From: Kiritimatiellia bacterium
GTDB taxonomy: Bacteria; Verrucomicrobiota; Kiritimatiellia; CAIQIC01; Lenti-01
Reading direction: 5' to 3'
NCBI GenBank assembly: GCA_028681135.1
Contig: JAQUJC010000004.1
Location: 8,107 to 72,106 of the forward strand
DNA length: 64,000 bases
The stretch's first letter is position 1, and each line of letters opens with the position of its first letter. Both the position numbers and the translations under genes were made by a program. The notes under the pieces were generated by a model that saw only the letters and a program-made list of their open reading frames with translations, ran no database searches and was not told the origin of the DNA. Positions 22,984 through 39,619 of this stretch are shown piece after piece.

Positions 22984-25900
22984 TCATGGAATCCTGACCG
23001 GACGGAAGAACTGGAGAGGCTCGTCCATGGTGTTGGTATAGCCCATCACCCCGTCCACCGTCGCTGTGAAGACCGCTCCCGGCACAGCACCCCACTCCCC
23101 GGAAGGTAAATTTGAGGAAGACTGCACGGTATAGATTGCGCCAGCCCTTCCCAGCCATCTGACCGAGAAGGGAGTGCTGGACGACACATTTGCCACGAAC
23201 GGACCGACGGCCGGATCCGTGGGATCACCGCTGTGCGCCACTTCCTGGCCGTCATCCCAGCCATCGCCGTCCGTATCCGGATTCTGCGGATCGGTCTGGA
23301 GGCGGAATTCGCCAATATTCAAGAGCCCATCGCCATCGTCATCCAGCAGGGCATCGAGCGGGTTGGTAGGATCCAATCCATTGAGCACTTCCCACGCATC
23401 GTCCATGCCATCACCATCGCCGTCCACGGTCGCCTCCAATTTCTGCAAGCGATTATTCCACGTGTCCGCCACAATGATCGAGGACGACATCAAGGACGGT
23501 GCCGCATCATGGGGAAAGCTGACCTGTCCATCGCCGCCCCCTTGCTGTCCCAAACTTCCCACATGGGCTCTGGACGAGTCCAGCACCTGAATCCGGTGGT
23601 TGGAAGTGTCCGCCACAAAGAGACGATTACCCAAGCCGATCTGAATGCTCATGGGTTTGTTGAACTGCCCCGCACCGGTACCAAACGAGCCGGTCTTCCA
23701 TAGGAATGTGCCGCCGCTCGTAAAGCCTTGTAAGCGGTTGTTTTCGGTGTCCGCCACATAGACAATTCCGTGCTCGTCCACCGTGATCCCCTGGGGAGAG
23801 TTCATCTGACCATTGGCGGTTCCAAAGACACCGAAGGAGAACAACTGGACGCCATTCGGGTCGAAGACCTGAACGCGGTGGTTGTCCTTGTCCGCGACGT
23901 AGAACCGCCCCAACGGCCCAATGGCCACATCACGCGGATTATTGAACTGGCCCACCGCGGACCCGTACGACCCGAATTGGCGTTCAAAGACCACCGCCCC
24001 GGTCGTCGGATTGAAGGTGAACACCTGAATGCGGTGATTGGCCGAATCAGCCACGGCGAAACGGTCGGCATTCGGCGCCTTGCCCAAGCCGTAGGGCGTG
24101 GCGAACTGGCCCGCGTTCGTGCCATCCGAGCCGTAGGTTAGCACATGGGTGAGCGTCGTGCGGTCCCAAACCGAAACCCGGTTGTTCTGGCGGTCCAGCA
24201 CAAATACAAATTGATTGGTCAGGAACAAGCGCGTCGGAAAATGGAATTGGTTGGTCTCGCTGCCAATTGTTCCTGCCACCTGCTCTAGGGTCCACTCCGC
24301 TTCCAAGGGGACAATCGGCGCGCGTGGATCCATCCCGTTCAGAATGCAGTAGCCGTCGGGAATGGAATCGCCATTACTATCCCGCACCGTGGCAAGGGAA
24401 CCGGGGTATCCCAATACTTGGTCGACCACCCACGTTCCAAAATCGTGGGTCTCGTTCGCGGATAGATCCAGCGCATATACCCCCGAGTCGCCATACGCCA
24501 CGGAACCCTCGAATGTCGCCGCATCCCAGGCGCGGACATAGACGTTGCGGACCGGGGTGGTTTCCATAAAGTCGTGATGGAAAATTTCATCAAATCGACC
24601 CAGTTCGGGCAACCATTCATAACCCACGCCGATCCGTCCATGATTCTTATTGAAGGGGAAGGTGAACAGCACGGTGTCATCGCCCGTGGTGCTGCCATCC
24701 GAAGCGGGCAGATTGACAACTCCATCGGGACCGGCGTACACGAGCTGGAATAGGCTGGCTTCGGCCCCACCCGTTCCCGACAGGAACTGGTTCATCCAGT
24801 TCTTCACGCCTGTGCTGGATTGTACACGCAGGGTGGGTTGAACCACATTGAAGGTAACCGGAATCGCTTGAACAACCGCCCCGGGATAATTGCCGCGAAT
24901 GATGAGCACCGCCTCGTGGAGGCCAATCGTCAGGCCCGCCGATTCAGCCTTGAGTGTGACCGGCAGCTCGCTGTTGTCCACACTGGCGCTGACGGGCGAG
25001 GCATTCAACCACGGGACCGCCTCCAGCAACTCGTTTTCGACCAGCCCCCGCAAGACATCCTGCCAGGCACCCCTGGTTTGCCATTCGGCGGCATCCTGGT
25101 TTCCGTTCCAAAGAATCACCACGCCGCCGGTGCCGGTTTCGCGGCGCATCAGCTTGCTGGCCCCTTCCACCCCGAAGTACACCGCCGGAGCTTCATTGGT
25201 ATCGACCGTGGCTTCATCATAGGCCATGGAGGTGACCGCCACATGATCACCGGGCTGAATGTCGACCCAGAACGGGTCGATCGGCAGCGCCTGGACCAGT
25301 TCCGCCATGTCTTCCGCCTCCGGCGCGCGGTCCAGCGAGTCGGACCCGACCAGATCGCGCAGACGCCGATCATCCGGACGGGACAATACATGGGCACCGA
25401 CCACGATGAGCTTGCCGCCCTGATTCAGATAGGTCTGGAGCAGCGATTCTTCGGCCACCGACAGCAAGCGGCCCGTGCCAGCGGTTCCGCCCAGATCCAG
25501 AATCACGAGATCCTGCGGCAAAATAGCCTCCGGATCAGTGCTATGCCTTCCTGTCAGCACGCCCTCCACTGTGACCAGATTGTTGGACCACATCGATACG
25601 GTCCAGCCCGCTTGCTCCAGCACCGGCTGGACGAGTGCCAAGGCATTCCGGTCGGAAATCAAGGCAATCTTGCGCGGTTGGGCGGTGAGGATATCGAACT
25701 CAAATTCATCAACAGACAGATTGGAAAACAGCAGTGTTTGTTCCTGATCCTGTCCGGCCTGGGCCGCAAATACCATCTGCGTGGCCCCAAAGGCGATTTC
25801 GGGACGGCGCAAAGAGAAGTCTGCGATTTGGTTGCCGCCGACAAGGGTCCGAATGGTCGCCGGCGGGGTTTCGTGACTTTCGCCCAGTACGCGGAACCGA

Positions 25901-28900: not shown

Positions 28901-31900
28901 TTGGCCCAGGCTGTCCCCAAGCCGAAGTTGGCCATGGATGGCCCCGTCGCCGTGATTACGTCGCTGGGTGAATACTCGCCAGGCTTTAGCGCCTGAATAT
29001 CGTAGGCCACACCGGGAACCAGGCCATGCAACCCGTAGGAGCCATCGGCTTCAGATGTCGCCATGACATCCGGATACCCCGACGCCTGCCCGCGAATCAA
29101 GGCCTCTTCGATGGGTGCGCCGGTGAACAGATTGGTCACGAGACCATATACGCTTTCCCGCGTCGCGATTTCCAGGGTCAACATATCGGGATACGGCCCC
29201 AGACCGCCATCGGCGGTGGCGCTGTGGAAAACAGTGAAAGGCGTTTCCTGGGGAATATCCACCTCCGTCGACAGCGCCAATTGCGTCCCGCTCAAGGCCG
29301 AATCCCCTGGTTGCAGATCCCCGTAGAGAACATACGAAGTCGCAGGCGTCAAGGTCACCTCGGGCGTCGGCACGGTGACCGATGCCTGCACGTTGCTGAA
29401 GATCTGGGTCTGCATGGAATTGAAGACTTCCAAATTTAAGAAAAAGCTCTCACCTGGTTCGGCATGCCCATCGCCGTCCCCGCCGGCTGCGTCATCGATC
29501 TCATAACCGATGATATTGATGCCCGGCGGCAACACATTGGAGATGCGGACATCGTCAATATACCAGCCCGCCGCCACACCCTCATCGCCGGACTCAATAC
29601 GGAACCGCACCCGGATCGTTTGATTGGCGAACCCGGGCAGGTCGAGGCTCACCGCCTGCCAGCCCGCAGAGGAGCCGGTGACCAGCTCCGTGACGTTGAC
29701 CCAACCGGAGCCCCCGTTGACCTCGATGACGCCAAAATCGCTTTCCGCAAACTGATGCCACGACTGGAACTCAAGGCGGGGGCTCAACTTGACGGCCACC
29801 GGCGTGCTGACCAGCGATGCCAGGGCCAGAAGCGGATAATTGCCATCCAGAACGGTGCCCCAGAGCCGTTCGCCCGAGGTGGCGCCCGGAGGACCGTAGG
29901 ACGGCATGCCGTATTCCCAGCAGGTCACGTCGTTCAGGTTGGTGAACGTCCAACCGGCTTCGCCCGATTCCATGTCGTTTTCATAGACCGTGCGGCGGAC
30001 GGGGGTGATGAAGGTCAAGTAGTCCTCTTCGTTCGTGGAGGTCAGATCCGTCGGCGCCGAGGCCTTGTTCCCCGCGTAGTCCTCTGACAAAACGGCCATG
30101 ACGTATTTCGTCGAGCCTTCCACCGGGACCGTCACCGTATGCACGTATTGCGTCGTGGCGCCGATCACGGTCGGTGTGCTGACATAGGTGCCGCCGCCGA
30201 TTTCCGGCAGCAGCGCATCCAGCCCCCCGGGCGGAATTTCTGTCGTGAGGATGTAGCGGGAATCCGCCGGCTCATCCGTCGACCAGCCGACCGTCGCAAA
30301 ATCCTCCGCCACGTCCACCATCTGCACGTCGCTGATGACCGGCGGTGTATCGTCGATCAGGACTGAAATAGAGGCCGTTTTGAGACTCGGACTTTCATAG
30401 GTGACGGTCAGGGTGTCGTCCTCCACCGCCGTTGTGCCGCTGACCAGGTCAAACGAATTCGTGAATGTGGTTTCATCGACGCCGACCGTCAACAACGTCT
30501 CCGTGCTGGCCCACCGCACGACATCCAAGGGGTCCACGACTTCCACGGCCACGTCCACATCCGTCGGCAGAGGAGCAATCAACGTGGGGTCGTTCACCGT
30601 GACCTCGACCGTGGCGTCCGAACGATAAGCCTGGCGATCCAACGTGAGTTGCGGCCCCAGAGCAGCGATCGCGGCAAACAGGTCCAGTTCGCCGCCGGTG
30701 ACGGACTTGCCATCCAATGCCGGATTGGGCGCCACACTCTCCAAAATCGCGTCCCGGATCTCCTGATAGGTATAATCCGGATTGAGACTCCACAACAAGG
30801 CCGCCGCGCCCGCCACGTGCGGGCAGGCCATGGAGGTTCCTTGATACGAATCAAACTGATCGCCGGCCCCGCCGGGGACCGTGCTCAGAATATCCACGCC
30901 CGGCGCCGCCAAATCCACGCTTTCAAGCCCATAATTGGAAAATTCGGCCAGCGAACCGCCTTCCGCGATAGCCGCCACCGAGATGATGTTAGGCAAGTCG
31001 TAGCTGGCCGGATAGGCCGGGGTTTCGTCGTTGTCGTCACCCACTCCGTCAAAACCGCCGTTGCCCGCCGCCGCAATAAATAGCTGCCCGTACGTCTCCC
31101 CGGCCACTTTGATGGCATCATACAAGCCCTGGCTGGCACCGCCACCGCCCCAACTGTTGTTGGTGATCTTGATCTTCAGGGCCGTGTTGGTGGCCGCGTA
31201 TTCCACCGCGCGAATGGCATCGTCCGTACTGCCGTACGGATCCAGGAACTTCAGGCTGATCATCTTGACGTTCCAGTTCACGCCGACCACGCCGAACGTG
31301 TTGTTGCCGACCGCGCCAATGGTGCCGGCCACATGCGTGCCATGTCCGGCGTTATCCCGTTGATCAGCGGTGTTGTTGGCGAAATCATAGCTGCCCGGCG
31401 CGATATTGGCAGAAAGATCCTGATGCGTGGTAAGAATGCCCGTATCGATGACCCCGACGACAATCTCTGGGCTGCCAACGGAGATATCCCACGCTTCGGG
31501 CGCGCGGATGCGATCCATACCCCACAAATCGCCATCGACATAGGAAGGATCATCCGGGGTCGTCGCGTAGGCCCGCACGATGTAGTTGGGCTCGACATAC
31601 GCCACCGCCGGATGGGCCATGTATTGTTTGGCCACCTGGGCCATTGAAAGCCGCTGCGACAGCTTCACGTGGACAACCGGGGTGATCGAAAACTGCCCGA
31701 TCACCTGTGCGCCAAGCTGTTGATGAAGGGCATGGATGCTGGCCGCTGCCACACCCGGCTTGAAGCCGATCAGCAATTCGCCCGGGACATAGTCCTCGGT
31801 GAAAACCGGGCGGTTCCAATCCACCCCCGCTGGAGGGGCGGCCCACCCCATGCTGGCCATGAATAGGCTGCCCAGGAGCAGCCAAAATCCGCAACGTGCT

Positions 31901-31914
31901 CGATTGGTTTTCAT
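22984..31914 (-). CDS. Giant secreted multidomain protein (2976 aa). It has two complete inhibitor-I9 + subtilisin (S8) protease units, CARDB-like and carboxypeptidase-regulatory-like beta-sandwich domains, a six-repeat NHL beta-propeller, thrombospondin-type-3-like repeats, and the shared C-terminal module.
   Basis: A signal peptide is present. S8 unit 1 has the catalytic residues in VGVIDTG, HGTHVAG and GTSMACPHVAG, around nt 31530-30650. S8 unit 2 has them in IAVMDTG, HGTHVAGTVGA and SGTSMAAPHVAG, around nt 27560-26500. Both units are preceded by an I9-like propeptide. NHL repeats (NHRIQVF, NHRVQVFDPNG, NNRLQGF, NHRIQVLD, NNRLQKLE) lie around nt 24050-23270. Asp-rich repeats follow (DGDGDGMDDAWE, DDDGDGLLN, DTDGDGWDDGQE). 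The C-terminus reads ...YTVQSSSNLPSGEWGAV...GYTNTMDEPLQFFRPVRIP. Confidence 0.85.
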   Translation of the reverse strand: MKTNRARCGFWLLLGSLFMASMGWAAPPAGVDWNRPVFTEDYVPGELLIGFKPGVAAASIHALHQQLGAQVIGQFSITPVVHVKLSQRLSMAQVAKQYMAHPAVAYVEPNYIVRAYATTPDDPSYVDGDLWGMDRIRAPEAWDISVGSPEIVVGVIDTGILTTHQDLSANIAPGSYDFANNTADQRDNAGHGTHVAGTIGAVGNNTFGVVGVNWNVKMISLKFLDPYGSTDDAIRAVEYAATNTALKIKITNNSWGGGGASQGLYDAIKVAGETYGQLFIAAAGNGGFDGVGDDNDETPAYPASYDLPNIISVAAIAEGGSLAEFSNYGLESVDLAAPGVDILSTVPGGAGDQFDSYQGTSMACPHVAGAAALLWSLNPDYTYQEIRDAILESVAPNPALDGKSVTGGELDLFAAIAALGPQLTLDRQAYRSDATVEVTVNDPTLIAPLPTDVDVAVEVVDPLDVVRWASTETLLTVGVDETTFTNSFDLVSGTTAVEDDTLTVTYESPSLKTASISVLIDDTPPVISDVQMVDVAEDFATVGWSTDEPADSRYILTTEIPPGGLDALLPEIGGGTYVSTPTVIGATTQYVHTVTVPVEGSTKYVMAVLSEDYAGNKASAPTDLTSTNEEDYLTFITPVRRTVYENDMESGEAGWTFTNLNDVTCWEYGMPSYGPPGATSGERLWGTVLDGNYPLLALASLVSTPVAVKLSPRLEFQSWHQFAESDFGVIEVNGGSGWVNVTELVTGSSAGWQAVSLDLPGFANQTIRVRFRIESGDEGVAAGWYIDDVRISNVLPPGINIIGYEIDDAAGGDGDGHAEPGESFFLNLEVFNSMQTQIFSNVQASVTVPTPEVTLTPATSYVLYGDLQPGDSALSGTQLALSTEVDIPQETPFTVFHSATADGGLGPYPDMLTLEIATRESVYGLVTNLFTGAPIEEALIRGQASGYPDVMATSEADGSYGLHGLVPGVAYDIQALKPGEYSPSDVITATGPSMANFGLGTAWANAAPLIYEWEVNEGESALDTLSLDNAAGDLPLSYEIVVDVAAHPAMTEVPIWLTTDPSAGVVPVGAGAPVALTADASALAASEQPYEAVIRLMSNDAGGEDILIPASLTVMASPTLYVYGVRVTGGDGDAFAEPGEAVDMDIMLGNSGSLLALSLEGVLSYTGADATTVTQPNASWAHVLPGGVEGPVLDPPLAEYPQIQIDPLAGEGDVLPFSLEVTDADARVTTHTFDLTVTVRYAISGQVTDLDTTDPVEGAVVKAVSDRGTVQTLTDAAGDYSLFGLTNNTYDVYVLPPAPYGAPPSSNVVIASANAENVDFEVAAWGISALPTNIVVNLPEGVETNLTLDLTNDGPYAGFVEIGLELVQGVPHDRIGSLDLPEIDWTALPSEAVEQELLVRFEDGSAIQAQASALAAVGGQVLRRYHGVSAAHVRVPGNLSMEWVANTLTTDAAIRYVEPNYRREVFAVPNDALYSQMYGLDNTRQTGGTLAEDIRAQEAWDTTVGNTNVVIAVMDTGVKLDHVDLADNLVAGYDFGDDDPDPSPDPVAGVEHGTHVAGTVGASGGNGIGVAGVNWHSKIMPLKVATVGVNELGIEEAVLSSDAILAALEYAVDNGVKISNHSYGGYYFSGVEYEMIEYAMANEHLFVAAAGNEAVNNDDDQPYRSYPASYNLDNIISVAATDHDGALADFSNYGAQSVDIAAPGVDILSTYMYGTLDAYERLSGTSMAAPHVAGVAGLLKSVAPWATYDMLRDAIMLGARRDPVLEGVVSSAGHLDAAAALEHIQAFWLQVDTHRANIVSLDTLSVGVTINAGGQLPAGSYIAHIVVRGGANELSIPVTVNVAPAPVPVITDVAVDDQATGDGDRHAEPAETVDLFIRLLNDGSALYMSPTGTLTSTTPGVTIVQGTATWPGISSGDQQVNLAGFRVTLPNATGDVDFTLTLANGVLPFTLPVAPRQTISGTVRDALTAAGLAGLTVEYWGASSGRVLTESNGSYRIDGLEDGTYRFRVLGESHETPPATIRTLVGGNQIADFSLRRPEIAFGATQMVFAAQAGQDQEQTLLFSNLSVDEFEFDILTAQPRKIALISDRNALALVQPVLEQAGWTVSMWSNNLVTVEGVLTGRHSTDPEAILPQDLVILDLGGTAGTGRLLSVAEESLLQTYLNQGGKLIVVGAHVLSRPDDRRLRDLVGSDSLDRAPEAEDMAELVQALPIDPFWVDIQPGDHVAVTSMAYDEATVDTNEAPAVYFGVEGASKLMRRETGTGGVVILWNGNQDAAEWQTRGAWQDVLRGLVENELLEAVPWLNASPVSASVDNSELPVTLKAESAGLTIGLHEAVLIIRGNYPGAVVQAIPVTFNVVQPTLRVQSSTGVKNWMNQFLSGTGGAEASLFQLVYAGPDGVVNLPASDGSTTGDDTVLFTFPFNKNHGRIGVGYEWLPELGRFDEIFHHDFMETTPVRNVYVRAWDAATFEGSVAYGDSGVYALDLSANETHDFGTWVVDQVLGYPGSLATVRDSNGDSIPDGYCILNGMDPRAPIVPLEAEWTLEQVAGTIGSETNQFHFPTRLFLTNQFVFVLDRQNNRVSVWDRTTLTHVLTYGSDGTNAGQFATPYGLGKAPNADRFAVADSANHRIQVFTFNPTTGAVVFERQFGSYGSAVGQFNNPRDVAIGPLGRFYVADKDNHRVQVFDPNGVQLFSFGVFGTANGQMNSPQGITVDEHGIVYVADTENNRLQGFTSGGTFLWKTGSFGTGAGQFNKPMSIQIGLGNRLFVADTSNHRIQVLDSSRAHVGSLGQQGGGDGQVSFPHDAAPSLMSSSIIVADTWNNRLQKLEATVDGDGDGMDDAWEVLNGLDPTNPLDALLDDDGDGLLNIGEFRLQTDPQNPDTDGDGWDDGQEVAHSGDPTDPAVGPFVANVSSSTPFSVRWLGRAGAIYTVQSSSNLPSGEWGAVPGAVFTATVDGVMGYTNTMDEPLQFFRPVRIP

Positions 31915-32489
31915 AATTGATCGGACTCCTCCGCCGAGCGGGTCGCACCCGCTTCCTCGAGTTCAGGCGCGGCATCCTCGGCCATGTCCGCCTGTTTCTT
32001 TTCCAACGCCTGCAGTTCAAGCTGGACCCGGACCCGGTCGTTGGCCAGTTTCATGGTCTCGCGCCTGATCTCACTTGAACGCCCGACAACGACGGTTTGT
32101 CGGGAGGTGAACGCCACATAATTGGTATGTTCTGACATGCGTTGCGCCAGTGCTTCTTGCTGGGCATGCAAATCGCGCTGCATCGCTTCGATTTGCTCCA
32201 CCATTTCCCGTAATTCTTCGTCGGTATCCAATAGGTGCTGGCGAAGTTCAAACTGTTCGCGCTGTGCCTCGCGCGCCTGCGTCATCAACCCCTTTTTTTC
32301 GTCGTCAAGCACAGCCATCTGGCTATCAATCCGCTCGACCCGATTCCGAGCCTCGTGAATCTGTTCTTCCAATTCTTCCGCCGTTGGCATGAACGCCCCA
32401 GTCTGAGTTTCGTTCGCCAAGCCTACGAACGGAAATACTGCGATCAAGACCGCAAGAAAAGCAACTGAATAGACACGGCAAAACAACAT
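31911..32489 (-). CDS. Small signal-anchored coiled-coil protein (192 aa). It is translationally coupled to giant protein 2 by a 4-nt overlap.
   Basis: A preferred start gives MLFCRVYSVAFLAVLIAVFPFVGLANE..., a signal or TM segment followed by a long coiled coil (EELEEQIHEARNRVERIDSQMAVLDDEKKGLMTQAREAQREQFELRQ...). The stop overlaps the ATG of the giant gene. The architecture is paralogous to 22328..22888. Confidence 0.65.
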   Translation of the reverse strand: MLFCRVYSVAFLAVLIAVFPFVGLANETQTGAFMPTAEELEEQIHEARNRVERIDSQMAVLDDEKKGLMTQAREAQREQFELRQHLLDTDEELREMVEQIEAMQRDLHAQQEALAQRMSEHTNYVAFTSRQTVVVGRSSEIRRETMKLANDRVRVQLELQALEKKQADMAEDAAPELEEAGATRSAEESDQL

Positions 32490-32806
32490 GCTTAACCTCT
32501 CCTTCTCGATGCGCCACAAAATGGGCCCAGTCAGCCCAATCCTGCAGAAAGTGCGGGTTCTTTTGCATGGCCTACGCACAACCCGCACCTGCTTTATTCA
32601 TCATGCGTTGTTCCTTCACTGCCAAGAGATAGGCCTCATGCCCTATTTACGGTGAGTAGACCGCAAAAATGAGGGGCTGGCAATCAAAAAAATGCCGCAG
32701 CGCCTTGCGGAGCTTCTACGATTGGATAGAGGGGTCAGCGGAGACGCCGCCAGACAGCGGGGGCGATGGTTGGTAGAGCTAAAAATCGGCGATGCAGTTG
32801 CCGACG

Positions 32807-33691
32807 CTACACCGTATCCATGAAAGTCCGCTCCACGCGGTTAAAAACCGCCATGCCCAGCAGCAGCAGCAGCACCGTAAATCCCCCTGAATAGGCCAAA
32901 TAAGCCCACGAAAACACCCCCGTGCCGAAAAATCCGTAGCGGAACGTCTCGACAATGGCCGTCAGCGGATTGGCGGCAATGATCCAACGGTAGTGGTCTG
33001 GCATGGTCGACAGCGGATAAATCACCGGCGTGGCATACATCCATAACTGCACCCCGAAGCCCACCAACACTTGTAAATCACGGTATTTTGTCGTCAGCGA
33101 TGAAATAATCACCCCGAAGCCCAAGCCCAAGCCCGCCATCATCAGCAGCAGCAGCGGCAGCAGCCCCACCGCCCAATTGGGCTGAATTGGCGCGCCTTTT
33201 GCCCAAAACAGGCCATATACGAACAGAAAAAACGTAAATTGAATGGAAAAAGCGATCAATTGCGACATCACGACGGAAACCGGCACCACCATGCGCGGAA
33301 AATACACCTTCCCGAAAATTCCCGCGTTGGCAATAAAGGTGTTGGAGGTGCGCGTCAGACAGTTGGCAAAGTAGCTCCAGACCGTTGTCCCGGCCATATA
33401 AAAGACGAATTGCGGCACTTTGTCAGTCGGCAGCCCCGCAATGCGCCCAAACACCACCGTAAACATCAGCGTGGTCAGCAACGGTTGGATAATGTGCCAC
33501 AGGGGTCCCAGAATGGTCTGCTTGTACGACGCCACGAAATCGCGGCGCACAAACAGCCCCATCAGGTCGCGATAACGCCACAAATCCTTAAAATGCAGGT
33601 CAAACCAGCCCTTGGGCGGCTCGATGACCAAATCCCAACCGTTTGCGTCTGTCTGGAGTGCCATAGCCGGAAAATATCCCAAAGCCCCCAC
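32807..33691 (-). CDS. ABC-2 type polysaccharide/O-antigen export permease (Wzm/KpsM/TagG family). No cognate ATPase gene is adjacent.
   Basis: The 294-aa product has six predicted TM helices and the ABC-2 signature region (FVRRDFVASYKQTILGPLWHIIQPLLTTLMFTVVFGRIA). An alternative start is at 33664. Confidence 0.75.
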   Translation of the reverse strand: MGALGYFPAMALQTDANGWDLVIEPPKGWFDLHFKDLWRYRDLMGLFVRRDFVASYKQTILGPLWHIIQPLLTTLMFTVVFGRIAGLPTDKVPQFVFYMAGTTVWSYFANCLTRTSNTFIANAGIFGKVYFPRMVVPVSVVMSQLIAFSIQFTFFLFVYGLFWAKGAPIQPNWAVGLLPLLLLMMAGLGLGFGVIISSLTTKYRDLQVLVGFGVQLWMYATPVIYPLSTMPDHYRWIIAANPLTAIVETFRYGFFGTGVFSWAYLAYSGGFTVLLLLLGMAVFNRVERTFMDTV

Positions 33692-33721
33692 GGGAAGTCA
33701 ATCGCAGACGCCACAGCGCGA

Positions 33722-34214
33722 AGATGGATACCTTTGGAGAATGCTTCGGGAAAGCAGGAAGGCCGGAAAAAGCAGTTTTGGGACCGATTTTGATGGTTTT
33801 TGGGGATGAAAATGCGCAAAATCGGACAAAACACCAGGAAAACCGCTCTTTTTAGCCCATTTTAGCCTCAATGGGGCAAAAATCTCTATTTTGAGCATAT
33901 TTCGCGCCGTTTTTTCCTGCAATGCCCGCCAGCGGGCTCTCTGCTGTGGAAAACGCCGACATAGACGCCCCTCCCCTTGTTCAATTTCCCTGTTCACACC
34001 TTGTCTCGGTTATTATTATATGTGAGACAAGCTGGAAATTGAGTTCACCTATCTACATGGTGGGCAGGATAATAGATGGCAGTCTCGGTTATTATTATAT
34101 GTGAGACTCGGGGGCTCATATGGCGATTGGGACACACGTTGCCCCGTCTATTTTGTTTGCGGTTCCAATCAGGTGATTATGGAATGAGTGTCTTGTTTCG
34201 GACGTCAGGCAGCT
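33722..34214. repeat. Copy 1 of a ~492-bp segmental direct repeat. It is upstream of the Wzm gene and downstream of the GT-C gene.
   Basis: It is ~97-99% identical to 35938..36428. It contains a ~150-bp low-GC tract and two 26-bp AT-rich palindromes. Confidence 0.85.
34003..34107. promoter_or_regulatory. Pair of 26-bp AT-rich palindrome-ended motifs (GTCTCGGTTATTATTATATGTGAGAC), 79 bp apart, inside repeat copy 1.
   Basis: The motifs sit at 34003-34028 and 34082-34107. The same pair recurs at 36217-36242 and 36296-36321. Each has GTCTC/GAGAC inverted ends around a 16-bp AT-only core, in a GC-rich genome. Confidence 0.55.
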
Positions 34215-34322
34215 GTCCGCCCGTGGAGGAAATGGCATGGCTGGGCCCCCTTTGGAGAATGCATCTGGAAATCAGGAAAAGGAGACACAGTCGAGCGGCC
34301 ATTTTTTGAAAGGATTAACCGG

Positions 34323-35612
34323 CTATTGGGCTATTCCGACTGACGGGGCTTGGTCGGCATGAGAGCGGCGCACCTCCCGGGCGGCCACCGCCCACAAGCC
34401 CACCAGCGCCAGGCGTCCCGCCCACCGCACCGCATGCGCCCAGGGCGCGTCCGGAATATAGAAGGGGTCCGAAAGAGCCAGTCCCAGCACGGTGCCCAGC
34501 ACCAAGCCGCCGACCGCCCATCCGCGGTGGCGTGGGGACGCGACCGCCTGGCTGGCAAACCATACCAACGCAAAGGCCAGCAAGACAAAATCGTGCCGTT
34601 CATGATACGTCCATGCCAGATTAGCCAGGCTCAGCAGAACAAAATGCGCCTCCCAGCGGGCCCGACGGTAGCGCCAACACCAGAGGCCGACAAGCACCCA
34701 GATGCCCAGGACTACCGCCATGGCCTGAGCCGTGTTTTCCCATCCCAGTGCATTCAACACTTCCTGGATCGTGAAAGCCCCTTGCAACACATAGCGGCAC
34801 AGGTCCATCCACTGGCCAATCAACACCCAGGGCCATTCCCATAGCCAAATCGCCGGTAGAATCGTCAGCACCAGCCCGGCCACAAAGGCGGTCCAGATCG
34901 GAACCCATTTCCAGCGAATCAGTGGGATAAAAAAGAATAACAGGACTAGCGACGGCTTGATCAGCGCCGCCAAAAACAACCAGCCAGCCACCACCGGCCG
35001 CCGCTCAATCTCACGCACCGCCAGCCAGGCACACAGCAGCGAGACCAGCCCCGCCTGCCCATTTTGAATCACATATTGCAGCGGCGGCCACCAGAGACAC
35101 ACGACGGCCACGGCCCCCCCGGCCGCCGCACGCGGCCAGCGGGTTTCCGTCTGGAACCAGTTTCCCAATTGCCACAGCAGCAGCAGCAACACCGCCAGAT
35201 TCGCGCTGGTATAGACCGGTAGCAACAGCCATTCTGGTAGGAACCCGAGCGTGGGCATCAGCATGGACATGGTGGAGGGCGGGTACGTCGCCTCGGGCGG
35301 CGGCTGACCCGGCAGCATGCCCGGGGTGTCGGGAGTCCAATCGGCACTGGAGATCGAATAGATGCGCTGCTCTTTCAGCCGCACCCGGTCGCTGCCGGTC
35401 ACCGGGCCAAAGGTGTCATGCAGCAGCCGCTGCGCCAATTCATAGGGATTGATGCGCGCGCGCACATATTGGCAGACCACCCATTGCCGCGACGCATCGG
35501 ACCAGCCCCGCATGGTCCAACCCCGCTGAGCGCTATAGCCCGTATATAGCAAACCGAGAGCCAGGGCCAGCACCCCCACACCCTGCCGCATCTTTTTTGC
35601 CCGTGTACTCAT
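34323..35612 (-). CDS. GT-C fold integral membrane glycosyltransferase (DUF2029/GT87-like). It is flanked by the ~492-bp direct repeats.
   Basis: The product is multi-TM with ALIKPSLVLLFFFIPLIRWKW and WLWEWPW motifs typical of DUF2029/PimE-like mannosyltransferases. The preferred start is MSTRAKKMRQG (35612). The track ORF extends to 35774. Confidence 0.55.
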   Translation of the reverse strand: MSTRAKKMRQGVGVLALALGLLYTGYSAQRGWTMRGWSDASRQWVVCQYVRARINPYELAQRLLHDTFGPVTGSDRVRLKEQRIYSISSADWTPDTPGMLPGQPPPEATYPPSTMSMLMPTLGFLPEWLLLPVYTSANLAVLLLLLWQLGNWFQTETRWPRAAAGGAVAVVCLWWPPLQYVIQNGQAGLVSLLCAWLAVREIERRPVVAGWLFLAALIKPSLVLLFFFIPLIRWKWVPIWTAFVAGLVLTILPAIWLWEWPWVLIGQWMDLCRYVLQGAFTIQEVLNALGWENTAQAMAVVLGIWVLVGLWCWRYRRARWEAHFVLLSLANLAWTYHERHDFVLLAFALVWFASQAVASPRHRGWAVGGLVLGTVLGLALSDPFYIPDAPWAHAVRWAGRLALVGLWAVAAREVRRSHADQAPSVGIAQ

Positions 35613-35937
35613 GGCGGGATGTTTACCAAACTCGCGCCCCCCTGACCACGCGATTTTTGTAAGGGCTGGTGGTGGGTGGTCCGTGGTTTTGGAATTGCGC
35701 GCCCAATGACAACTTAGACAGTGTCCGCTCGAGCGGCCGGGCCCAGCGCAGACTGTTTGGAAATACACACGCAAAAACCAGGCTCTGCACGATAAAGTCG
35801 GCCTGGATCAGCATGCGCCATGCCCATGCCGGACACACTAGCCTGCATTATTCAGGCTAGGTGCGCCCCTGGGCGCGCCAGATCGGGGGCAAATCGTACA
35901 GCCGCCGCGCTCATCGAGCCCAGCACCATGGCCCGAA

Positions 35938-36428
35938 GACGGAAACCTTTGGAGAATGCTTCGGGAAAGCAGGAAGGCCGGAAAAAGCAGTTTTTGGGCC
36001 GATTTTGATGGTTTTTGGGGATGAAAATGCGTAAAATCGGACAAAACACCAGGAAAAACGCTCTTTTTAGCCCATTTTAGCCTCAATGGGGCAAAATCTC
36101 TATTTTGAGCATATTTCGCGCCGTTTTTTCCTGCGATGCCCGCCAGCGGGCTCTCTGCTGTGGAAAACCCCGACATAGACGCCCCTCCCCTTGTTTGATT
36201 TCCCTGTTCACACCTTGTCTCGGTTATTATTATATGTGAGACAAACTGGAAATTGAGTCCATTTATCTAACTGGTGGGCAAGATAATAGATGGCAGTCTC
36301 GGTTATTATTATATGTGAGACTCGGGGGCTCATATGGCGATTGGGACACACGTTGCCCCGTCTATTTTGTTTGCGGTTCCAATCAGGTGATTATGGGATG
36401 AGTGTCTTGTTTCGGACGTCAGGCAGCT
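35938..36428. repeat. Copy 2 of the ~492-bp segmental direct repeat, lying between the divergent GT-C and GT2 genes.
   Basis: See copy 1. It contains the palindromes at 36217-36242 and 36296-36321. Confidence 0.85.
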
Positions 36429-36747
36429 AACGATCTACTGGTTTTGAGCAAACAAATAGTCGTGGTCTTCAAGTCTTTCGACTAGGCAATAGCCGAAATC
36501 TGCCAGTATGGACCACCGCTTCGTGCCGTGTTGCAATAATCGTCTGAATATAGTCTTCACCGGCGTTTGGCGCATATATTTTCGCCACCTCCCCATTTGT
36601 CATTTTCTGGGCGCTTGTAAGCTGAAAAATGAAATCTGGGGCGCTTTGGGAAAGGATGATTTGGTTAGTCAATGGATTTTGGGCTGGCGTCGAGGTGGCG
36701 TCGAGGCAAATGGACATTGGTCATGGGGGATGGTACACTTTCTGGCC

Positions 36748-37737
36748 ATGTCGAAAACACCTCACCTAACGATCATTGTACCGGCCTACAATGCGGCGAA
36801 GGATTTACCAGCGTGCCTGGAATCGCTTTATGCACAGACGGTGGCAATTCGCATTCTGATTGCGAATGACGGGTCCACGGACGATACTGCGGCGGTTGCC
36901 GATGCGGCGGCACGGTTGGAGATCGTGAGGGTGCTCCATCTCCCCCATTCGGGTGCCAATGCTGCTCGTCAAGCCGCCTTAGAGGCCGTTGATACCCCCT
37001 ATTTTGCTTTTGTTGATGCAGATGATGCATTGGAGCCGACCTTTGCTGAGGAGATGATCGAAGCCGCGGTGCGGCATAAGGCTGATTTGGTGTTCTGTCC
37101 GTACATTTGCGTGTATGACCGCGTTGAGCGGCACGTGTCGTATGGCGGAGAAGGAGACGCCTTCGCACGAGATGCTCACCCCCTTCGCAAAACACCTAAT
37201 TTGCTAGTGTCCGTTCCCGTCTTTTTTTGGGGAAAGCTGTTTCGCACTGAGTATGTTCGACCCCACATAGATTTTGCCCCTAAGGAATGCGCCCCGATGG
37301 AAGACATTCCGACGATCATTCCGCTTTTGATTGACATGCCGCGTATGGCCAAGGTTGCGACGCCGCTATATCGCTATGCTATTTCATCCGATTCTATGTG
37401 TCGGGTTTCCAAGCAGGAGCTTACCCGTATAGTGGCATTGCGCACATTGCATGAGCGTCTGGAGGCGATCGGGGCACTGCCGACGTTTTTGCCGCAATTG
37501 TATGCAATTAATCGGTGCTATCTTTTCGACCAACTGGAAAAATTGCGAGGGTATTGCGACCCGGCACATCAGCACCGCGTGATACGTGACTATTTCCGGC
37601 ATTTGGAAGGCACGCTGCCTGGCTGGCGCCCGCATCCGTTCCATCCGACGTTCTACGCAGCCTATTGGCATGGAGTCGTGGCGTGGAATACGTTGCGGAA
37701 TAGATTCACCCGACGGGGCAAGGATGGCGAAGACTAG
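36748..37737 (+). CDS. Family 2 glycosyltransferase (GT-A fold).
   Basis: The start at MSKTPHLTIIVPAYNAAKDLPACLESL is followed by ANDGSTDDT and a DADD (DxD) motif. The track ORF from 36508 has an implausible N-terminal extension. Confidence 0.75.
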   Translation: MSKTPHLTIIVPAYNAAKDLPACLESLYAQTVAIRILIANDGSTDDTAAVADAAARLEIVRVLHLPHSGANAARQAALEAVDTPYFAFVDADDALEPTFAEEMIEAAVRHKADLVFCPYICVYDRVERHVSYGGEGDAFARDAHPLRKTPNLLVSVPVFFWGKLFRTEYVRPHIDFAPKECAPMEDIPTIIPLLIDMPRMAKVATPLYRYAISSDSMCRVSKQELTRIVALRTLHERLEAIGALPTFLPQLYAINRCYLFDQLEKLRGYCDPAHQHRVIRDYFRHLEGTLPGWRPHPFHPTFYAAYWHGVVAWNTLRNRFTRRGKDGED

Positions 37738-37929
37738 CGAAGGGCATGATGGGGCTCACGTTGAGGGAAAGCGGTGGCGATGGCCGTCGTATCAACCGAA
37801 GGAATTTTGCAAGAGGCTCTCCTCATTGCCTTTTCTGGCACCAGCCGTGAACCAGGTACCCATGGCAACCGCCAGCCGTGGGGTGCCAACGCGGGGATGG
37901 ACGATCCTTTGCTACCGCAAGGAGCGCCC

Positions 37930-39063
37930 TCATGGGGTTGCCGTCTTTGGTGCTCCTTTCAGTCGATCATACAACCCGGCAAAGGCGGCCAGCACGGCAT
38001 CCGGCGCGTGGTGGTGCCGAACCTGTTCGCGCCCGTTGGAGCCCCAAATCGCGGCCGCGGCCGGCGTGTTCAGCATTTCGATCCAGACTGCTGCTAGGTC
38101 GGCAGCCGAAGCCGTCAACGGCAGTAGGCATCCCGTCTCGCCATCGCGCACCAGTTCGCGATTGCCGCCGCAATCGGTGGCCAGCACCGGCAAGCTCGCC
38201 GCCATATACTCCAGAATGGTGTTGGACAGCCCTTCGTTGCGGTTGGGTACCAGCGCGCCAACCTCGCACTGGCGCAGCAACGACGGCACGTCCAGCACCT
38301 CGCCCAAGAAACAGACGGCCTCCGCCACGCCCAAGGCGGCCGCTTGCGCGCGCAACGCCGGCAGTTCCCGCCCCTCCCCCGCGACGATTAGAACCGCCGC
38401 GGGCACCACCTGACGCACCTGCACCAGGGCGTCGATTAGCAACCCTGTATTTTTTTCGGGGTCCAGTCGATTCACCACCACCAGACGGCGGCCCGCCGGA
38501 AGCGCCGCCGCCGCCGAAAACGGTTCGCTCGCCCGGGCATCGAATTCGTCCAGGTCGACTAGATTAGGCCGTACCACGACTTTCTCTGCGGGCAAACCCT
38601 GGGCCAGAAAATGCTCCCGCACCGCTTCGGCATTGGCGACCACGCTAACGGCGGCCCGGTCGGCGCGACGCATCATGGCCAACTTCCATTTCGGATAAAT
38701 CTGTCCCAGATCGCGGCGGCTGGTCATGAACTTCACGTCTGCCCACTGCGCCGCAAACTGGCCAAAAATCGCCGCATCGGCATCCCACGCATGCAAAACA
38801 TCAATTTTTTCGTTGCGCAGCCAGGCGGCCAGCCGTCGGATCTCCCGCACCGTGGCCACCCGCGCCAAATGGCGGATGCGCACTTCATGCACCGGGCCGC
38901 AGGCGGCCTCGACCGCTTCGCGGAAGAAGCCCCGCTTATGAAACACCGCTACTCGGTGCGACAGCCCCCGCTGCGCCAGCCCCATGGCTACCCGTGCGCA
39001 TTGGCCTTCGGTTCCGCCGCGAATCAGATCAAAAACGAGATGGGCGACCTTGGGCGTGCTCAT
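37930..39063 (-). CDS. Family 4 glycosyltransferase (GT-B fold, glycosyl transferase group 1).
   Basis: The 377-aa product has an N-terminal HLVFDLIRGGTEGQ region and a C-terminal EGLSNTILEYMAASLPVLATD region with the E-x7-E-like GT4 pattern. Confidence 0.75.
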   Translation of the reverse strand: MSTPKVAHLVFDLIRGGTEGQCARVAMGLAQRGLSHRVAVFHKRGFFREAVEAACGPVHEVRIRHLARVATVREIRRLAAWLRNEKIDVLHAWDADAAIFGQFAAQWADVKFMTSRRDLGQIYPKWKLAMMRRADRAAVSVVANAEAVREHFLAQGLPAEKVVVRPNLVDLDEFDARASEPFSAAAALPAGRRLVVVNRLDPEKNTGLLIDALVQVRQVVPAAVLIVAGEGRELPALRAQAAALGVAEAVCFLGEVLDVPSLLRQCEVGALVPNRNEGLSNTILEYMAASLPVLATDCGGNRELVRDGETGCLLPLTASAADLAAVWIEMLNTPAAAAIWGSNGREQVRHHHAPDAVLAAFAGLYDRLKGAPKTATP

Positions 39064-39168: not shown

Positions 39169-39619
39169 CGTGGCGGTCTTCGGCTCACCCGGAGGGTTCG
39201 CCCTACCTGGGGCAAAGTCCGGCTTTGGGTAGTGACGCCGCACTGTCGGTGTCCGTATAAATTGCCAACCTGACCGCCCGGTCGGCACGGAGGTCGCCCC
39301 TCTAGACCCCCTAATCTGTGTCCATTTGTGTTCATCCGTGGTTCACCTGTCCGAAACTGGAGCCGACACGATCCCGTGGCGGTCTTCGGCTCACCCGGAG
39401 GGTTCGCCCTACCTGGGGCAAAGTCCGGCTTTGGGTAGTGACGCCGCACCGTCGGTGTCCGTATAAATTGCCAACCTGACCGCCCGGTCGGCACGGAGGT
39501 CGCCCCTCTAGACCCCCTAATCTGTGTCCATTTGTGTTCATCCGTGGTTCACCTGTCCAAAACTGGAGCCGGCACGATCCCGTGGCGGTCTTCGGCTCAC
39601 CCGGAGGGTTCGCCCTACC
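39169..39619. repeat. Tandem repeat with a 206-bp unit. There are two near-identical full copies (39169-39374 and 39375-39580) and a ~39-bp partial third copy. Each unit contains a family-C hairpin arm (cggctcacccggagggttcgccctacc...gggtag).
   Basis: Landmarks cgtggcggtcttcgg sit at 39169, 39375 and 39581. Landmarks ctaatctgtg sit at 39311 and 39517. There are only ~3 mismatches between the full copies. A degenerate partial copy also precedes position 39169. Confidence 0.9.

What the first reader, a model, noticed from the sequence alone, without database searches (positions are those of the whole stretch)
33722..36428. A ~492-bp near-identical direct repeat flanks the GT-C glycosyltransferase gene and supplies the upstream region of both the Wzm gene and the GT-C gene
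Copies at 33722..34214 and 35938..36428 are ~98% identical. Flanking identity stops abruptly at both ends. One copy lies 5' of the Wzm permease gene. The other lies 5' of the DUF2029 GT-C gene, divergently facing the GT2 gene. Each contains a low-GC ~150-bp tract and two AT-rich palindromes. Three readings are possible. It could be a duplicated promoter or regulatory cassette co-regulating two envelope genes. It could be homology arms allowing recombinational excision of the GT-C gene, which would be phase-variable glycosylation. It could be a relic of an insertion event.
Basis: seen in the sequence. Interest (0 to 1): 0.55.

Follow-up and report, generated by a model that had tools for sequence, protein, structure and literature searches.

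The report
Duplicated non-coding spacer flanking a glycosyltransferase gene
A real 0.5-kb AT-rich non-coding segment sits on both sides of a glycosyltransferase gene in an uncultured Kiritimatiellia bacterium; it is a species-specific by-product of local gene-cluster reshuffling that probably now carries the promoters of the neighbouring genes, which makes it ordinary.

Summary
The repeat is real. Copy A is 33716-34214 and copy B is 35931-36428, in direct orientation. They differ by 19 substitutions and 1 indel, so identity is 96%, not 98%. Independent contigs from other samples confirm both copies and their junctions. The unit is non-coding, with no Rfam hit, terminal inverted repeats or target duplications. 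It contains 13 A/T tracts phased at about 10 bp and two identical 26-bp boxes (GTCTC-N16-GAGAC around TATAAT). A third, decayed stub lies at 34249-34305. The unit was not found outside this species. Relatives have GT87 and Wzm 15-166 nt apart, so copy A is an insertion. Copy B lies between two truncated methyltransferase genes, and its right edge falls exactly on an inversion breakpoint. The real GT2 start is 36730, and GT2's ancestral promoter region is deleted. My best reading is a locally duplicated junction segment that now supplies promoter and operator DNA to genes cut off from their old operon. No tool could test promoter activity here. I saw no GT87-deletion variant, but short contigs could not show one. 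Interest is low to moderate.

The parts
33716..34214 (.). Copy A of the 499-nt unit (U_A). It lies between the GT87 stop (34323) and the Wzm start (33664), and its left edge is 52 nt upstream of the Wzm ATG.
   Evidence: It is identical in NCBI MAG contig L001. Homology with relative L051 upstream of Wzm stops at 33702, 14 nt from the unit's edge.
35931..36428 (.). Copy B of the unit (U_B), 498 nt. It lies between a methyltransferase pseudogene remnant plus GT87 on the left and an FkbM-methyltransferase pseudogene remnant plus GT2 on the right.
   Evidence: Logan contig L043 spans it with both flanks. Homology to sister-species contig L044 begins exactly at 36429.
34249..34305 (.). u', a decayed third partial copy that aligns to unit positions about 16-76. 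The first 30 nt match 27/30 and the following roughly 27 nt match weakly. It lies 34 nt from copy A and 17 nt from the GT87 stop.
   Evidence: The local alignment scores 50, against a shuffle maximum of 34. It is also present in strain contigs L004 and L005.
34003..34028 (.). 26-nt box 1 of copy A, GTCTCGGTTATTATTATATGTGAGAC. It has 5-bp inverted arms around an AT-rich core, and the minus strand reads GTCTCACATATAATAATAACCGAGAC.
   Evidence: 4 matches in the window, 0.05 expected for GTCTC-N16-GAGAC.
34082..34107 (.). 26-nt box 2 of copy A, identical to box 1 and 79 nt from it start to start.
36217..36242 (.). 26-nt box 1 of copy B.
   Evidence: It is identical in L043.
36296..36321 (.). 26-nt box 2 of copy B.
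   Evidence: It is identical in L043.
33767..33915 (.). Array of 13 A4-6/T4-6 tracts in copy A, with centres 8.5-12 nt apart (about 10.2 nt on average). This predicts intrinsically curved DNA.
   Evidence: AA/TT power peaks at 10.0-10.5 nt, and 0 of 2000 shuffles reach it; it is the strongest 10-nt periodicity in the whole window.
35982..36129 (.). The same phased A/T-tract array in copy B.
33731..33760 (.). 30-nt motif CCTTTGGAGAATGCTTCGGGAAAGCAGGAA at the Wzm-proximal end of copy A. The same motif lies at 35946-35975 in copy B and, with 3 mismatches, in u'.
   Evidence: It has no matches in metagenome or viral contigs.
34323..35612 (-). GT87 (DUF2029, GT-C fold) glycosyltransferase gene, 429 aa, enclosed by the two copies.
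   Evidence: Pfam PF09594. The start was chosen by comparison with homologues of 422-445 aa. Strain differences fall 17:2:54 across codon positions, so the gene is under purifying selection.
32807..33664 (-). Wzm-type ABC-2 permease gene, 285 aa, downstream of copy A.
   Evidence: Pfam PF01061. The exact protein is on record with this start.
35689..35838 (-). Remnant holding the last ~50 codons of a class-I SAM-dependent methyltransferase gene, inside the 318-nt spacer between copy B and GT87.
   Evidence: tblastn gives 50% identity over 50 aa to L009 18490-19419, E = 3e-6. The L009 protein is Methyltransf_25/12/11.
36433..36669 (-). Remnant of an FkbM-type (Methyltransf_21) methyltransferase gene, made of two pieces with a ~508-nt internal deletion and loss of the 5' end. 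It abuts copy B's right edge.
   Evidence: blastn to L044 4994-5073 (87.5%) and 5582-5727 (82%). Alignment. tblastn gives 86% over 50 aa. Pfam assignment of the L044 gene.
36730..37737 (+). GT2 glycosyltransferase gene with its corrected start (335 aa). The ATG conserved with the sister species (36710) is out of frame. The annotated 409-aa ORF from 36508 runs through the pseudogene remnant.
   Evidence: Homologues are 320-336 aa and cover 77-80% of the long ORF.
33673..33701 (-). Sigma-70-like site TTGACT-N17-(TG)GATATT just outside copy A. It ends 9 nt before the Wzm ATG and could be Wzm's own promoter.
   Evidence: The TTGACT is conserved in L051, but the -10 hexamer is not.

Best explanation
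**What it is.** The unit is an AT-rich (about 47% GC against 60% for the window), non-coding 0.5-kb segment specific to this lineage. It was copied locally at least three times while the envelope-polysaccharide locus of this Kiritimatiellia species was being reshuffled. Two full copies and one decayed stub survive within 2.7 kb.

**Shown steps.**

1. The FkbM-methyltransferase/GT2 block was inverted relative to Wzy_C-MBOAT-AlgX-GT4.
2. Two methyltransferase genes were truncated.
3. The ancestral promoter-bearing spacer between the FkbM methyltransferase and GT2 was deleted.
4. The formerly tight GT87-Wzm pair was split by about 0.55 kb of inserted sequence (copy A plus the stub).
5. Copy B occupies the rearrangement junction itself.

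**Inferred step.** GT2 now converges on GT4, and truncated genes lie upstream of GT87. Read-through from the old operon can therefore no longer reach GT87 and Wzm. GT87 is intact and under purifying selection, so it must be transcribed from somewhere in 35613-36428, and the AT-rich copy B is the most likely place. Copy A would then carry the same signals in front of Wzm. On the other strand, copy B is also the only long non-coding DNA upstream of GT2. The curved A/T-tract array and the two identical palindromic boxes containing TATAAT would be the promoter and operator elements.

**Origin and side effect.** The copies most likely arose by tandem duplication followed by deletion, or by microhomology-mediated copying. 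The same locus holds a second non-coding duplication (206 nt x 2.2). The direct-repeat geometry incidentally makes GT87 deletable by RecA-mediated recombination, but that is a side effect and not a demonstrated switch.
For: **Anatomy.**

- The repeat is real and is confirmed in independent assemblies.
- It has no conserved ORF: a 1-nt indel shifts the frame. There is no Pfam hit in any frame and no Rfam hit.
- There are 13 phased A/T tracts, the strongest 10-nt periodicity in the 64 kb.
- Four identical 26-nt boxes occur in the window, with 0.05 expected. They are also identical in strain contig L043, while the 53-nt spacer between them differs at 7-8 sites per pairwise comparison.

**Comparative evidence.**

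- GT87 and Wzm are adjacent with 15-166 nt spacers in L006, L016, L017 and L051, and none has the unit or the box.
- Wzm is mid-operon in about 15 related loci.
- Sister-species contig L044 shows GT4, then the FkbM methyltransferase on the opposite strand, then GT2. In the window that block is inverted, and homology resumes exactly at copy B's right edge.
- The methyltransferase is reduced to two fragments, and the 162-nt spacer between it and GT2 is deleted.
- A class-I methyltransferase stub lies between copy B and GT87.

**Gene function and local habit.**

- GT87 is under purifying selection.
- No intrinsic terminator is predicted on the minus strand between GT87 and Wzm.
- A second local non-coding duplication (206 nt x 2.2) is a single partial copy in the sister species.
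- The pattern fits the published class of duplicated upstream regions in front of non-homologous genes (PMC3488235).
Against: - No transcription data exist.
- The sigma-70 consensus scan finds only weak sites (9 of 12 matches) and no enrichment (4 found, 1.9 expected).
- No -35 element partners the TATAAT in the boxes (my own reading of the sequence).
- The distances to the two start codons differ (52 nt and 318 nt).
- Wzm has a separate promoter-like site outside the unit (33701-33673).
- In relative L051, the region upstream of GT87 is GC-rich and nothing like the unit. AT-richness is therefore not the clade's usual promoter signature.
- Evidence for selective constraint is weak. Conservation of the right-hand 147 nt in L043 is explained by a recombination breakpoint at 36281/36282, and strain L004 has 2 differences in 40 nt there. 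For box 1 alone, I estimate about 2 substitutions would be expected against 0 seen, which is not significant.
- The exact duplication mechanism is not recoverable from the sequence.
Confidence: 0.45

Rival explanations
1. Functionless scar. The copies are neutral debris of segmental duplication, deletion and inversion in a fast-evolving polysaccharide locus. The genes would be transcribed from other signals, such as the TTGACT-N17-GATATT site in front of Wzm or cryptic promoters in the pseudogene remnants.
For: - Copy B sits exactly at a synteny breakpoint between two truncated genes.
- A decayed stub, u', shows that copies do decay.
- Between strains, the left two-thirds of copy B and the adjoining spacer diverge by 4.3% (29 of 667), with 18 of 351 inside copy B itself. 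That is much faster than the flanking genes (0 of 1831), as expected for unconstrained DNA or a recombined tract.
- There is no promoter enrichment and no covariation.
Against: - GT87 is intact, under purifying selection, and has no other evident upstream non-coding DNA.
- All six box copies seen are identical, although the spacer between them is about 13% diverged.
- The highly ordered 13-tract phasing is unlikely in random debris.
- Both copies are retained in strains about 1.6% diverged in their non-coding flanks.
Confidence: 0.25
2. Non-autonomous mobile element. This would be MITE-like or a fragment of an insertion sequence or integrative element that inserted at two or three nearby sites, caused the adjacent deletions and inversion, and has further copies elsewhere in the genome.
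For: - The borders are sharp and the composition is AT-rich and foreign-looking.
- It is inserted into a formerly compact gene pair.
- It is associated with truncated genes and an inversion, which are classic side-effects of insertion sequences.
- It is restricted to one species.
Against: - There are no terminal inverted repeats (local score 5-8, shuffle mean about 7) and no target-site duplications.
- The 64-kb window holds no transposase or integrase, and the unit holds no coding remnant.
- There are no other copies in the 64-kb window.
- There are no matches in plasmids, phages, IMG/VR, GTDB representative genomes or JGI metagenomes.
- All copies are clustered and in the same orientation, which fits local duplication better.
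Confidence: 0.12
3. Programmed on/off switch for GT87. The 0.5-kb direct repeats would serve as homology arms for RecA-mediated (or box-directed, site-specific) excision and re-acquisition of the GT87 cassette, giving variable surface glycosylation.
For: - The geometry fits: about 500-nt direct repeats at 96% identity, with identical runs up to 115 nt, bracket a single surface-glycan gene.
- In relatives GT87 is present or absent next to Wzm, and it occupies another slot in L007.
- The segment from roughly 34600 to 36281 is a population diversity hot-spot with recombination breakpoints, one of them inside copy B.
- The NCBI MAG failed to assemble 34552-36568.
Against: - No deletion or circle junction was seen in any contig.
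- All independent contigs agree with the full arrangement.
- The two copies have diverged by 4% and keep copy-specific sites in another strain, 11 of 20 diagnostic sites. They are therefore not being homogenised by frequent exchange.
- The window has no recombinase gene.
- Loss by homologous recombination would be irreversible without re-import.
Confidence: 0.08
4. Structured RNA. The unit would encode a small RNA or a long regulatory leader transcribed with Wzm and GT87.
For: The sense-strand fold of copy A plus the Wzm leader has a z-score of -3.15, against -1.85 for the other strand of copy B. The boxes can form hairpins.
Against: - There is no Rfam match, even at E <= 1.
- An alignment of three versions gives a covariation term of +0.57, one compensatory pair and several broken pairs.
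- Palindromes and A/T tracts alone can account for the z-score.
Confidence: 0.05
5. Assembly artefact: a collapsed or chimeric join of strain variants that creates a false duplication.
For: The source is evidently a metagenome-derived genome, and the population is mosaic in this region.
Against: Each copy is spanned with unique flanks by an independent contig from another project (L001 for copy A, L043 for copy B). L004 and L005 enter both copies from the GT87 side.
Confidence: 0.01

Closest known systems
Putative mobile promoters (PMPs), also called promoter propagation (Matus-Garcia, Nijveen & van Passel, NAR 2012; PMC3488235)
   Same: PMPs are highly similar non-coding DNA found upstream of non-homologous genes in one genome. 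Most families have two members, with about 92% mean identity. They are proposed to rewire transcription after rearrangement or gene acquisition.
   Different: This unit is much longer (499 nt, against a mean of 66 nt). Only the Wzm copy lies within the 150 nt upstream of a start codon, which is the PMP criterion. The two copies are adjacent and flank one gene. Promoter activity is untested.
Direct-repeat-mediated deletion or duplication of surface-polysaccharide genes by RecA-dependent recombination between flanking repeats, for example the IS1016-flanked cap locus of Haemophilus influenzae type b. This comparison is from my own knowledge and was not checked here.
   Same: Long direct repeats bracket a surface-glycan gene, so the gene can be lost or amplified by unequal crossing-over.
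   Different: The repeats here are not insertion sequences. No variant lacking or amplifying GT87 was observed, and no reversibility mechanism is evident.
MITEs carrying promoters or IHF sites, such as the Correia/NEMIS elements of Neisseria. This comparison is from my own knowledge.
   Same: These are short, AT-rich, non-coding repeats inserted next to genes, which can supply promoters and bent-DNA protein sites.
   Different: There are no terminal inverted repeats and no target-site duplication. The unit is about 3-4 times longer. Only a local cluster of copies is known.
Curved-DNA (phased A-tract) upstream activating regions of bacterial promoters. This comparison is from my own knowledge.
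   Same: About 150 bp carries A/T tracts in helical phase. On the plus strand it lies about 90-240 bp upstream of the boxes, pointing towards GT2.
   Different: On the strand of GT87 and Wzm the array lies downstream of the TATAAT boxes. No transcription start is known on either strand.

Membership tests
Putative mobile promoter (PMC3488235) | At least 50 nt at 80% identity or more between non-coding regions of one genome | tested here: met
   499 nt at 96.0% identity.
Putative mobile promoter (PMC3488235) | [quoted passage not shown] | tested here: inconclusive
   This is met for Wzm, where the unit ends 52 nt upstream. It is not met for GT87 (318 nt upstream) or GT2 (301 nt upstream).
Putative mobile promoter (PMC3488235) | The downstream coding sequences are not homologous | tested here: met
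   The genes are ABC2_membrane and GT87.
Putative mobile promoter (PMC3488235) | Actual promoter activity | not testable with these tools
   Only a consensus scan is available: 4 sites found against 1.9 expected, none strong.
MITE / non-autonomous insertion-sequence derivative | Terminal inverted repeats | tested here: not met
   The end-to-end local alignment scores 5-8, within the shuffle range (mean ~7, maximum 13). No terminal inverted-repeat pair appears.
MITE / non-autonomous insertion-sequence derivative | Target-site duplication flanking each copy | tested here: not met
   The flanks are ATCGCAGACGCCACA|...|GTCCGCCCGTGGAGG and GAGCCCAGCACCATG|...|AACGATCTACTGGTT, which share no k-mer.
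MITE / non-autonomous insertion-sequence derivative | Many dispersed copies in the genome | tested here: inconclusive
   Only the local cluster occurs in the 64-kb window. The rest of the genome is not available: the box and motif give 0 hits in genome, metagenome and viral collections.
Known RNA family (Rfam 15) | A covariance-model match at or near the gathering score | tested here: not met
   There is no match in either copy at E <= 1 and none in the window at gathering thresholds.
Mini-CRISPR array | At least 2 repeats of 23-47 nt with unique spacers, usually near cas genes | tested here: not met
   Each copy has only two 26-nt boxes. The same 53-nt 'spacer' is present (87% identical) in both copies. 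No cas domains occur in the window's ORFs.
Invertible-promoter phase switch (fim or Bacteroides capsule type) | Inverted repeats flanking a promoter segment, plus a nearby site-specific recombinase | tested here: not met
   The boxes are direct repeats. No recombinase or integrase domain occurs in the 64 kb. All versions of the inter-box segment are colinear.
Direct-repeat excision (deletion) switch | Direct repeats long and similar enough for homologous recombination | tested here: met
   About 499 nt at 96% identity, with a longest identical run of 115 nt.
Direct-repeat excision (deletion) switch | Population variants that lack the enclosed segment, with one hybrid repeat | tested here: inconclusive
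   None was seen among L001-L005, L043 and L052. However, short-read contigs break at the repeat and cannot reveal such variants.
JUMPstart/ops leader of polysaccharide operons (RfaH-dependent) | The ops element GGCGGTAG in the leader | tested here: not met
   It is absent from both intergenic regions on both strands.

The most novel reading that the evidence does not exclude
The unit would be a portable, bidirectional regulatory cassette: a curved-DNA array plus a pair of identical 26-bp palindromic operators. It would have been recruited to re-wire GT87, Wzm and GT2 after an inversion broke their operon. Its direct-repeat arrangement would also let the population lose or swap GT87 alleles by homologous recombination. 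That would amount to a combined co-regulation and cassette-exchange device for surface-glycan variation in Kiritimatiellota, a phylum with no described gene-regulation or phase-variation systems.
Probability: 0.1. Interest if true: 0.5.

Novelty: new member of a known kind. Interest (0 to 1): 0.3.

Why it matters
If the copies do carry promoters, this locus would be a clean natural example of operon repair by promoter duplication after an inversion, in a poorly studied phylum. The ancestral state is recoverable from sister-species contigs.

The flanking repeats also mark GT87 as a gene that recombination can delete or exchange. That bears on strain-level surface-glycan diversity and on phage or predator escape.

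Practically, the work corrects three annotations:

- the GT2 start;
- two unrecognised methyltransferase pseudogenes;
- the GT87 start.

It also explains why short-read assemblies of this species break here. Beyond that it is a local, species-specific feature with no evidence of a new mechanism.

Tried and rejected
**Looking for more copies.**

- The exact 26-nt box gave 0 hits in GTDB species-representative genomes and JGI metagenomes.
- A degenerate box and the degenerate 30-nt motif gave 0 hits in metagenome and viral contigs.
- Distant-mode blastn of the unit gave 0 hits in plasmids and phages.
- I queried a concatenated six-frame translation of the unit against the 5.8-billion-protein set, hoping to catch spurious genes called on other copies. 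It gave 0 hits.
- blastn and tblastx against about 50 fetched related loci gave nothing significant.

**Testing other identities.**

- Coding: there is no conserved ORF and no Pfam hit in any frame.
- RNA: there is no Rfam hit and no covariation. I treat the fold z-score of -3.15 as non-diagnostic.
- Mobile element: there are no terminal inverted repeats or target duplications.
- ops/JUMPstart: absent.
- A box-type operator shared with other promoters: GTCTC-N16-GAGAC occurs nowhere else in the window or in related loci.

**An inference I withdrew.** I first read the nearly invariant right-hand 147 nt as evidence of selective constraint. I dropped this once L043 proved identical to the window for 1.8 kb starting at that point, which indicates a recombination breakpoint.

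**Lookups that failed.** Exact-protein look-ups of GT87 with two different start codons found nothing.


Full report
**1.

The repeat finder, MAFFT and blastn all recover a direct repeat at 33716-34214 and 35931-36428. The copies are 499 and 498 nt long and differ by 19 substitutions and one 1-nt indel. Identity is therefore 96.0%, not the ~98% reported. The right border is abrupt. The left border frays over 15 nt. Nothing else in the 64-kb window resembles the unit.

- an ABC-2 (Wzm) permease at 32807-33664 on the minus strand;
- a GT87/DUF2029 GT-C glycosyltransferase at 34323-35612 on the minus strand;
- a GT2 glycosyltransferase on the plus strand.

The organism is an uncultured Kiritimatiellia (PVC) bacterium. 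NCBI MAG GCA_028704045.1 is essentially the same strain.

**2. It is not an assembly artefact**

- Contig L001 of that MAG spans copy A with unique flanks on both sides.
- Logan contig L043 (SRR8925751) spans copy B with both flanks.
- Logan contigs L004 and L005 (ERR13763415/4) come from a strain 94% identical over this stretch. They carry the GT87 segment and run 40-63 nt into both copies.
- L002 stops exactly where a k=31 graph should branch for a two-copy repeat.

**3. Anatomy of the unit**

The unit is 47% GC, against 60% for the window. It has four parts.
- A 30-nt motif sits at the Wzm-proximal end.
- A ~150-nt array holds 13 A4-6/T4-6 tracts whose centres are about 10.2 nt apart. Its AA/TT periodicity exceeds all 2000 shuffles and is the strongest in the window.
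- A short GC hairpin follows (seen in the sequence and in the fold).
- Two identical 26-nt boxes, GTCTCGGTTATTATTATATGTGAGAC, lie 79 nt apart, followed by 107 further nt. The boxes have 5-bp inverted arms, and the minus strand reads ...CACATATAATAATAACC....

What the unit lacks:
- It has no conserved reading frame, because the indel shifts the frame, and no Pfam signal in any frame.
- It has no Rfam match.
- Three versions of the unit show no covariation.
- It has no terminal inverted repeats, target-site duplications or ops element.

It aligns to unit positions 16-76: 27/30 matches, then weak similarity. The alignment scores 50, against a shuffle maximum of 34. It is also present in the L004 strain.

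**4. Distribution**

I found the unit only in this species.
- The box and the motif have no exact or degenerate matches in GTDB representative genomes, JGI metagenomes or IMG/VR.
- The unit has no blastn match in plasmids or phages.
- A six-frame protein probe found no gene called on it anywhere.
- None of about 20 related Kiritimatiellia or Verrucomicrobia loci contains it or any GTCTC-N16-GAGAC box.
- The genome-wide copy number in the source organism could not be determined.

**5. Comparative context, which decides the interpretation**

(a) *GT87 and Wzm.* In relatives L006, L016, L017 and L051, GT87 is followed directly by Wzm, with spacers of 15-166 nt of GC-rich DNA. In about 15 related loci Wzm is a mid-operon gene. 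Homology between the window and L051 upstream of Wzm ends at 33702, 14 nt from copy A's edge. Copy A plus the stub is therefore an insertion of about 0.55 kb into a formerly tight gene pair.

(b) *The GT2 side.* Sister-species contigs L044-L047 (about 85% DNA identity) show the order Wzy_C, MBOAT, AlgX and GT4 on one strand, then an FkbM methyltransferase on the other strand, then GT2. In the window, the methyltransferase-GT2 block is inverted relative to GT4.
- The methyltransferase survives only as two fragments (36433-36512 and 36520-36669).
- The 162-nt divergent spacer that must have held the GT2 promoter is gone.
- Homology to L044 begins at base 36429, immediately after copy B ends.

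(c) *The GT2 start.* The real start is ATG 36730, giving 335 aa like its 320-336-aa homologues. The start codon conserved with the sister species (36710) is out of frame. The 409-aa ORF from 36508 is an artefact that reads through the pseudogene.

(d) *The GT87 side.* The 318 nt between copy B and the GT87 start contain the last ~50 codons of a class-I SAM methyltransferase, 50% identical to an L009 gene at E = 3e-6. Copy B therefore lies between two truncated genes, at a rearrangement junction.

(e) *A second duplication.* The same locus holds another non-coding duplication: 206 nt x 2.2 at 39169-39619. It is a single partial copy in the sister species and one copy shorter in the NCBI MAG. 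Local non-coding duplication appears to be a habit of this lineage.

**6. Population data**

- L043 is identical to the window over 36282-38112 (0 differences in 1831 nt). It differs at 29 of 667 positions across 35615-36281, so a recombination breakpoint lies inside copy B.
- L004 differs from the window at 9% of sites in the central 700 nt of GT87, mostly at third codon positions. Its non-coding flanks differ by only about 1.6%.
- The NCBI MAG failed to assemble 34552-36568.
- GT87 and its upstream region are therefore a strain-level diversity island.
- At the 20 sites that distinguish copy A from copy B, L043's copy B keeps the B state at 11 and shows the A state at 8. The copies are old enough to predate strain divergence, and they are not being homogenised.
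- No contig shows a GT87 deletion. Contigs that break at the repeat could not show one.

**7. Interpretation**

*Shown:* the unit is a species-specific, non-coding segment that was copied locally during a burst of rearrangements. The rearrangements inverted GT2, destroyed two methyltransferase genes and split GT87 from Wzm.

*Inferred:* those events cut GT87 and Wzm off from upstream operon transcription and deleted GT2's old promoter. GT87 is intact and under purifying selection (codon-position differences 17:2:54). Promoters must therefore lie in the remaining non-coding DNA, and the AT-rich unit is the most likely place. Copy B would serve GT87 and, on the other strand, GT2. Copy A would serve Wzm. 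This matches the published category of duplicated upstream regions in front of non-homologous genes (PMC3488235).

The evidence for function is weak:
- The six boxes seen are identical although the spacer between them is ~13% diverged, and the A-tract phasing is conspicuous.
- Against that, the consensus promoter scan is not enriched.
- Wzm also has its own promoter-like site outside the unit.
- Relatives' upstream regions are GC-rich.

I give the duplicated-promoter reading 0.45. The rivals are a functionless scar (0.25), a mobile element with unseen copies (0.12), a programmed excision switch (0.08), a structured RNA (0.05) and an artefact (0.01).

**8. Verdict**

- "Relic of an insertion or rearrangement" is demonstrated.
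- "Regulatory cassette" is plausible but untested.
- "Excision arms" is only a geometric possibility.

This is a new member of a known kind and of low-to-moderate interest. Read-level structural-variant analysis, a whole-genome copy count and transcription-start mapping would settle it.

Noticed in passing
window 8815-8927: Four perfect copies of the 19-nt near-palindrome TTTTCCATAGCGTGGAAAA occur at exactly 31-nt spacing (TRF period 31, 3.6 copies). They lie in the divergent gap between a bacterial alpha-2-macroglobulin/HAAS ORF (6453-8540, minus strand) and a Ser/Thr kinase ORF (8920-11394, plus strand). They look like an operator or iteron array. A similar half-site (GTTTTCCACAGC) occurs once inside the 499-nt unit.
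   Followed up: partly
window 39169-39619: A 206-nt non-coding tandem repeat (2.2 copies, 98% identical) lies between the AlgX-like SGNH gene and the GT4 gene. The NCBI MAG of the same strain (L052) has exactly one copy fewer, and the sister species (L044 3634-3716) has a single 83-nt homologous piece. This is either a copy-number polymorphism or an assembly collapse.
   Followed up: partly
window 34694-35393 (inside GT87): Compared with strain contigs L004 and L005, the central 700 nt of GT87 is 9% diverged, mostly at third codon positions. Its non-coding flanks are only about 1.6% diverged. This is a mosaic, imported allele in a surface-glycan gene.
   Followed up: yes
window 36281/36282 (inside copy B), compared with L043: There is a sharp recombination breakpoint. 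L043 has 0 differences over 36282-38112 and 29 differences over 35615-36281.
   Followed up: yes
window 36433-36729: The annotated 409-aa GT2 ORF (from 36508) reads through an FkbM-methyltransferase pseudogene. The true start is ATG 36730, and the ATG conserved with the sister species (36710) is out of frame. An 11-nt tandem duplication (TGGCGTCGAGG x2, 36685-36706) marks the deletion scar of the old promoter region.
   Followed up: yes
window 31911-33664 and 22984-31914: Wzm has no Wzt ATPase partner nearby. Downstream lie a 225-aa ORF, which I take to be coiled-coil from its weak Pfam hits, and a 2976-aa ORF. The product of that ORF in MAG contig L001 carries S8 peptidase and fervidolysin-like domains. 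In relatives (L006, L048, L050) Wzt lies two genes after Wzm. Either Wzt is elsewhere in the genome or this Wzm is orphaned.
   Followed up: partly
L007 3645-5701, compared with window ~55407-55508: In GCA_030153545.1 a GT87 homologue (67% identical) and a Methyltransf_21 gene sit beside hisG. That position is syntenic with window ~55.45 kb, where the window has neither gene. GT87 therefore occupies different slots in related genomes.
   Followed up: partly
window 58904-59292 and 59446-59600: Coding tandem repeats (117 nt x 3.3 at 96% identity, and 45 nt x 2.9) lie inside the unannotated ORF 58510-59592 on the minus strand. They encode an acidic, repetitive protein with no Pfam match.
   Followed up: no
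window 14223-22268 and 22984-31914: Two giant minus-strand ORFs (2681 and 2976 aa) lie back to back. Neither window ORF was scanned against Pfam; the S8 peptidase, fervidolysin-like and CarboxypepD_reg domains of the second come from the precomputed annotation of its L001 counterpart.
   Followed up: no
L044 7120-7166; window ~50470-50495 and ~39310-39345: Short GC-rich motifs of the CACAGAGG/CCTCTGTG type occur at sister-species contig ends and in window intergenic regions. This suggests the clade carries a family of small dispersed repeats that break short-read assemblies.
   Followed up: no
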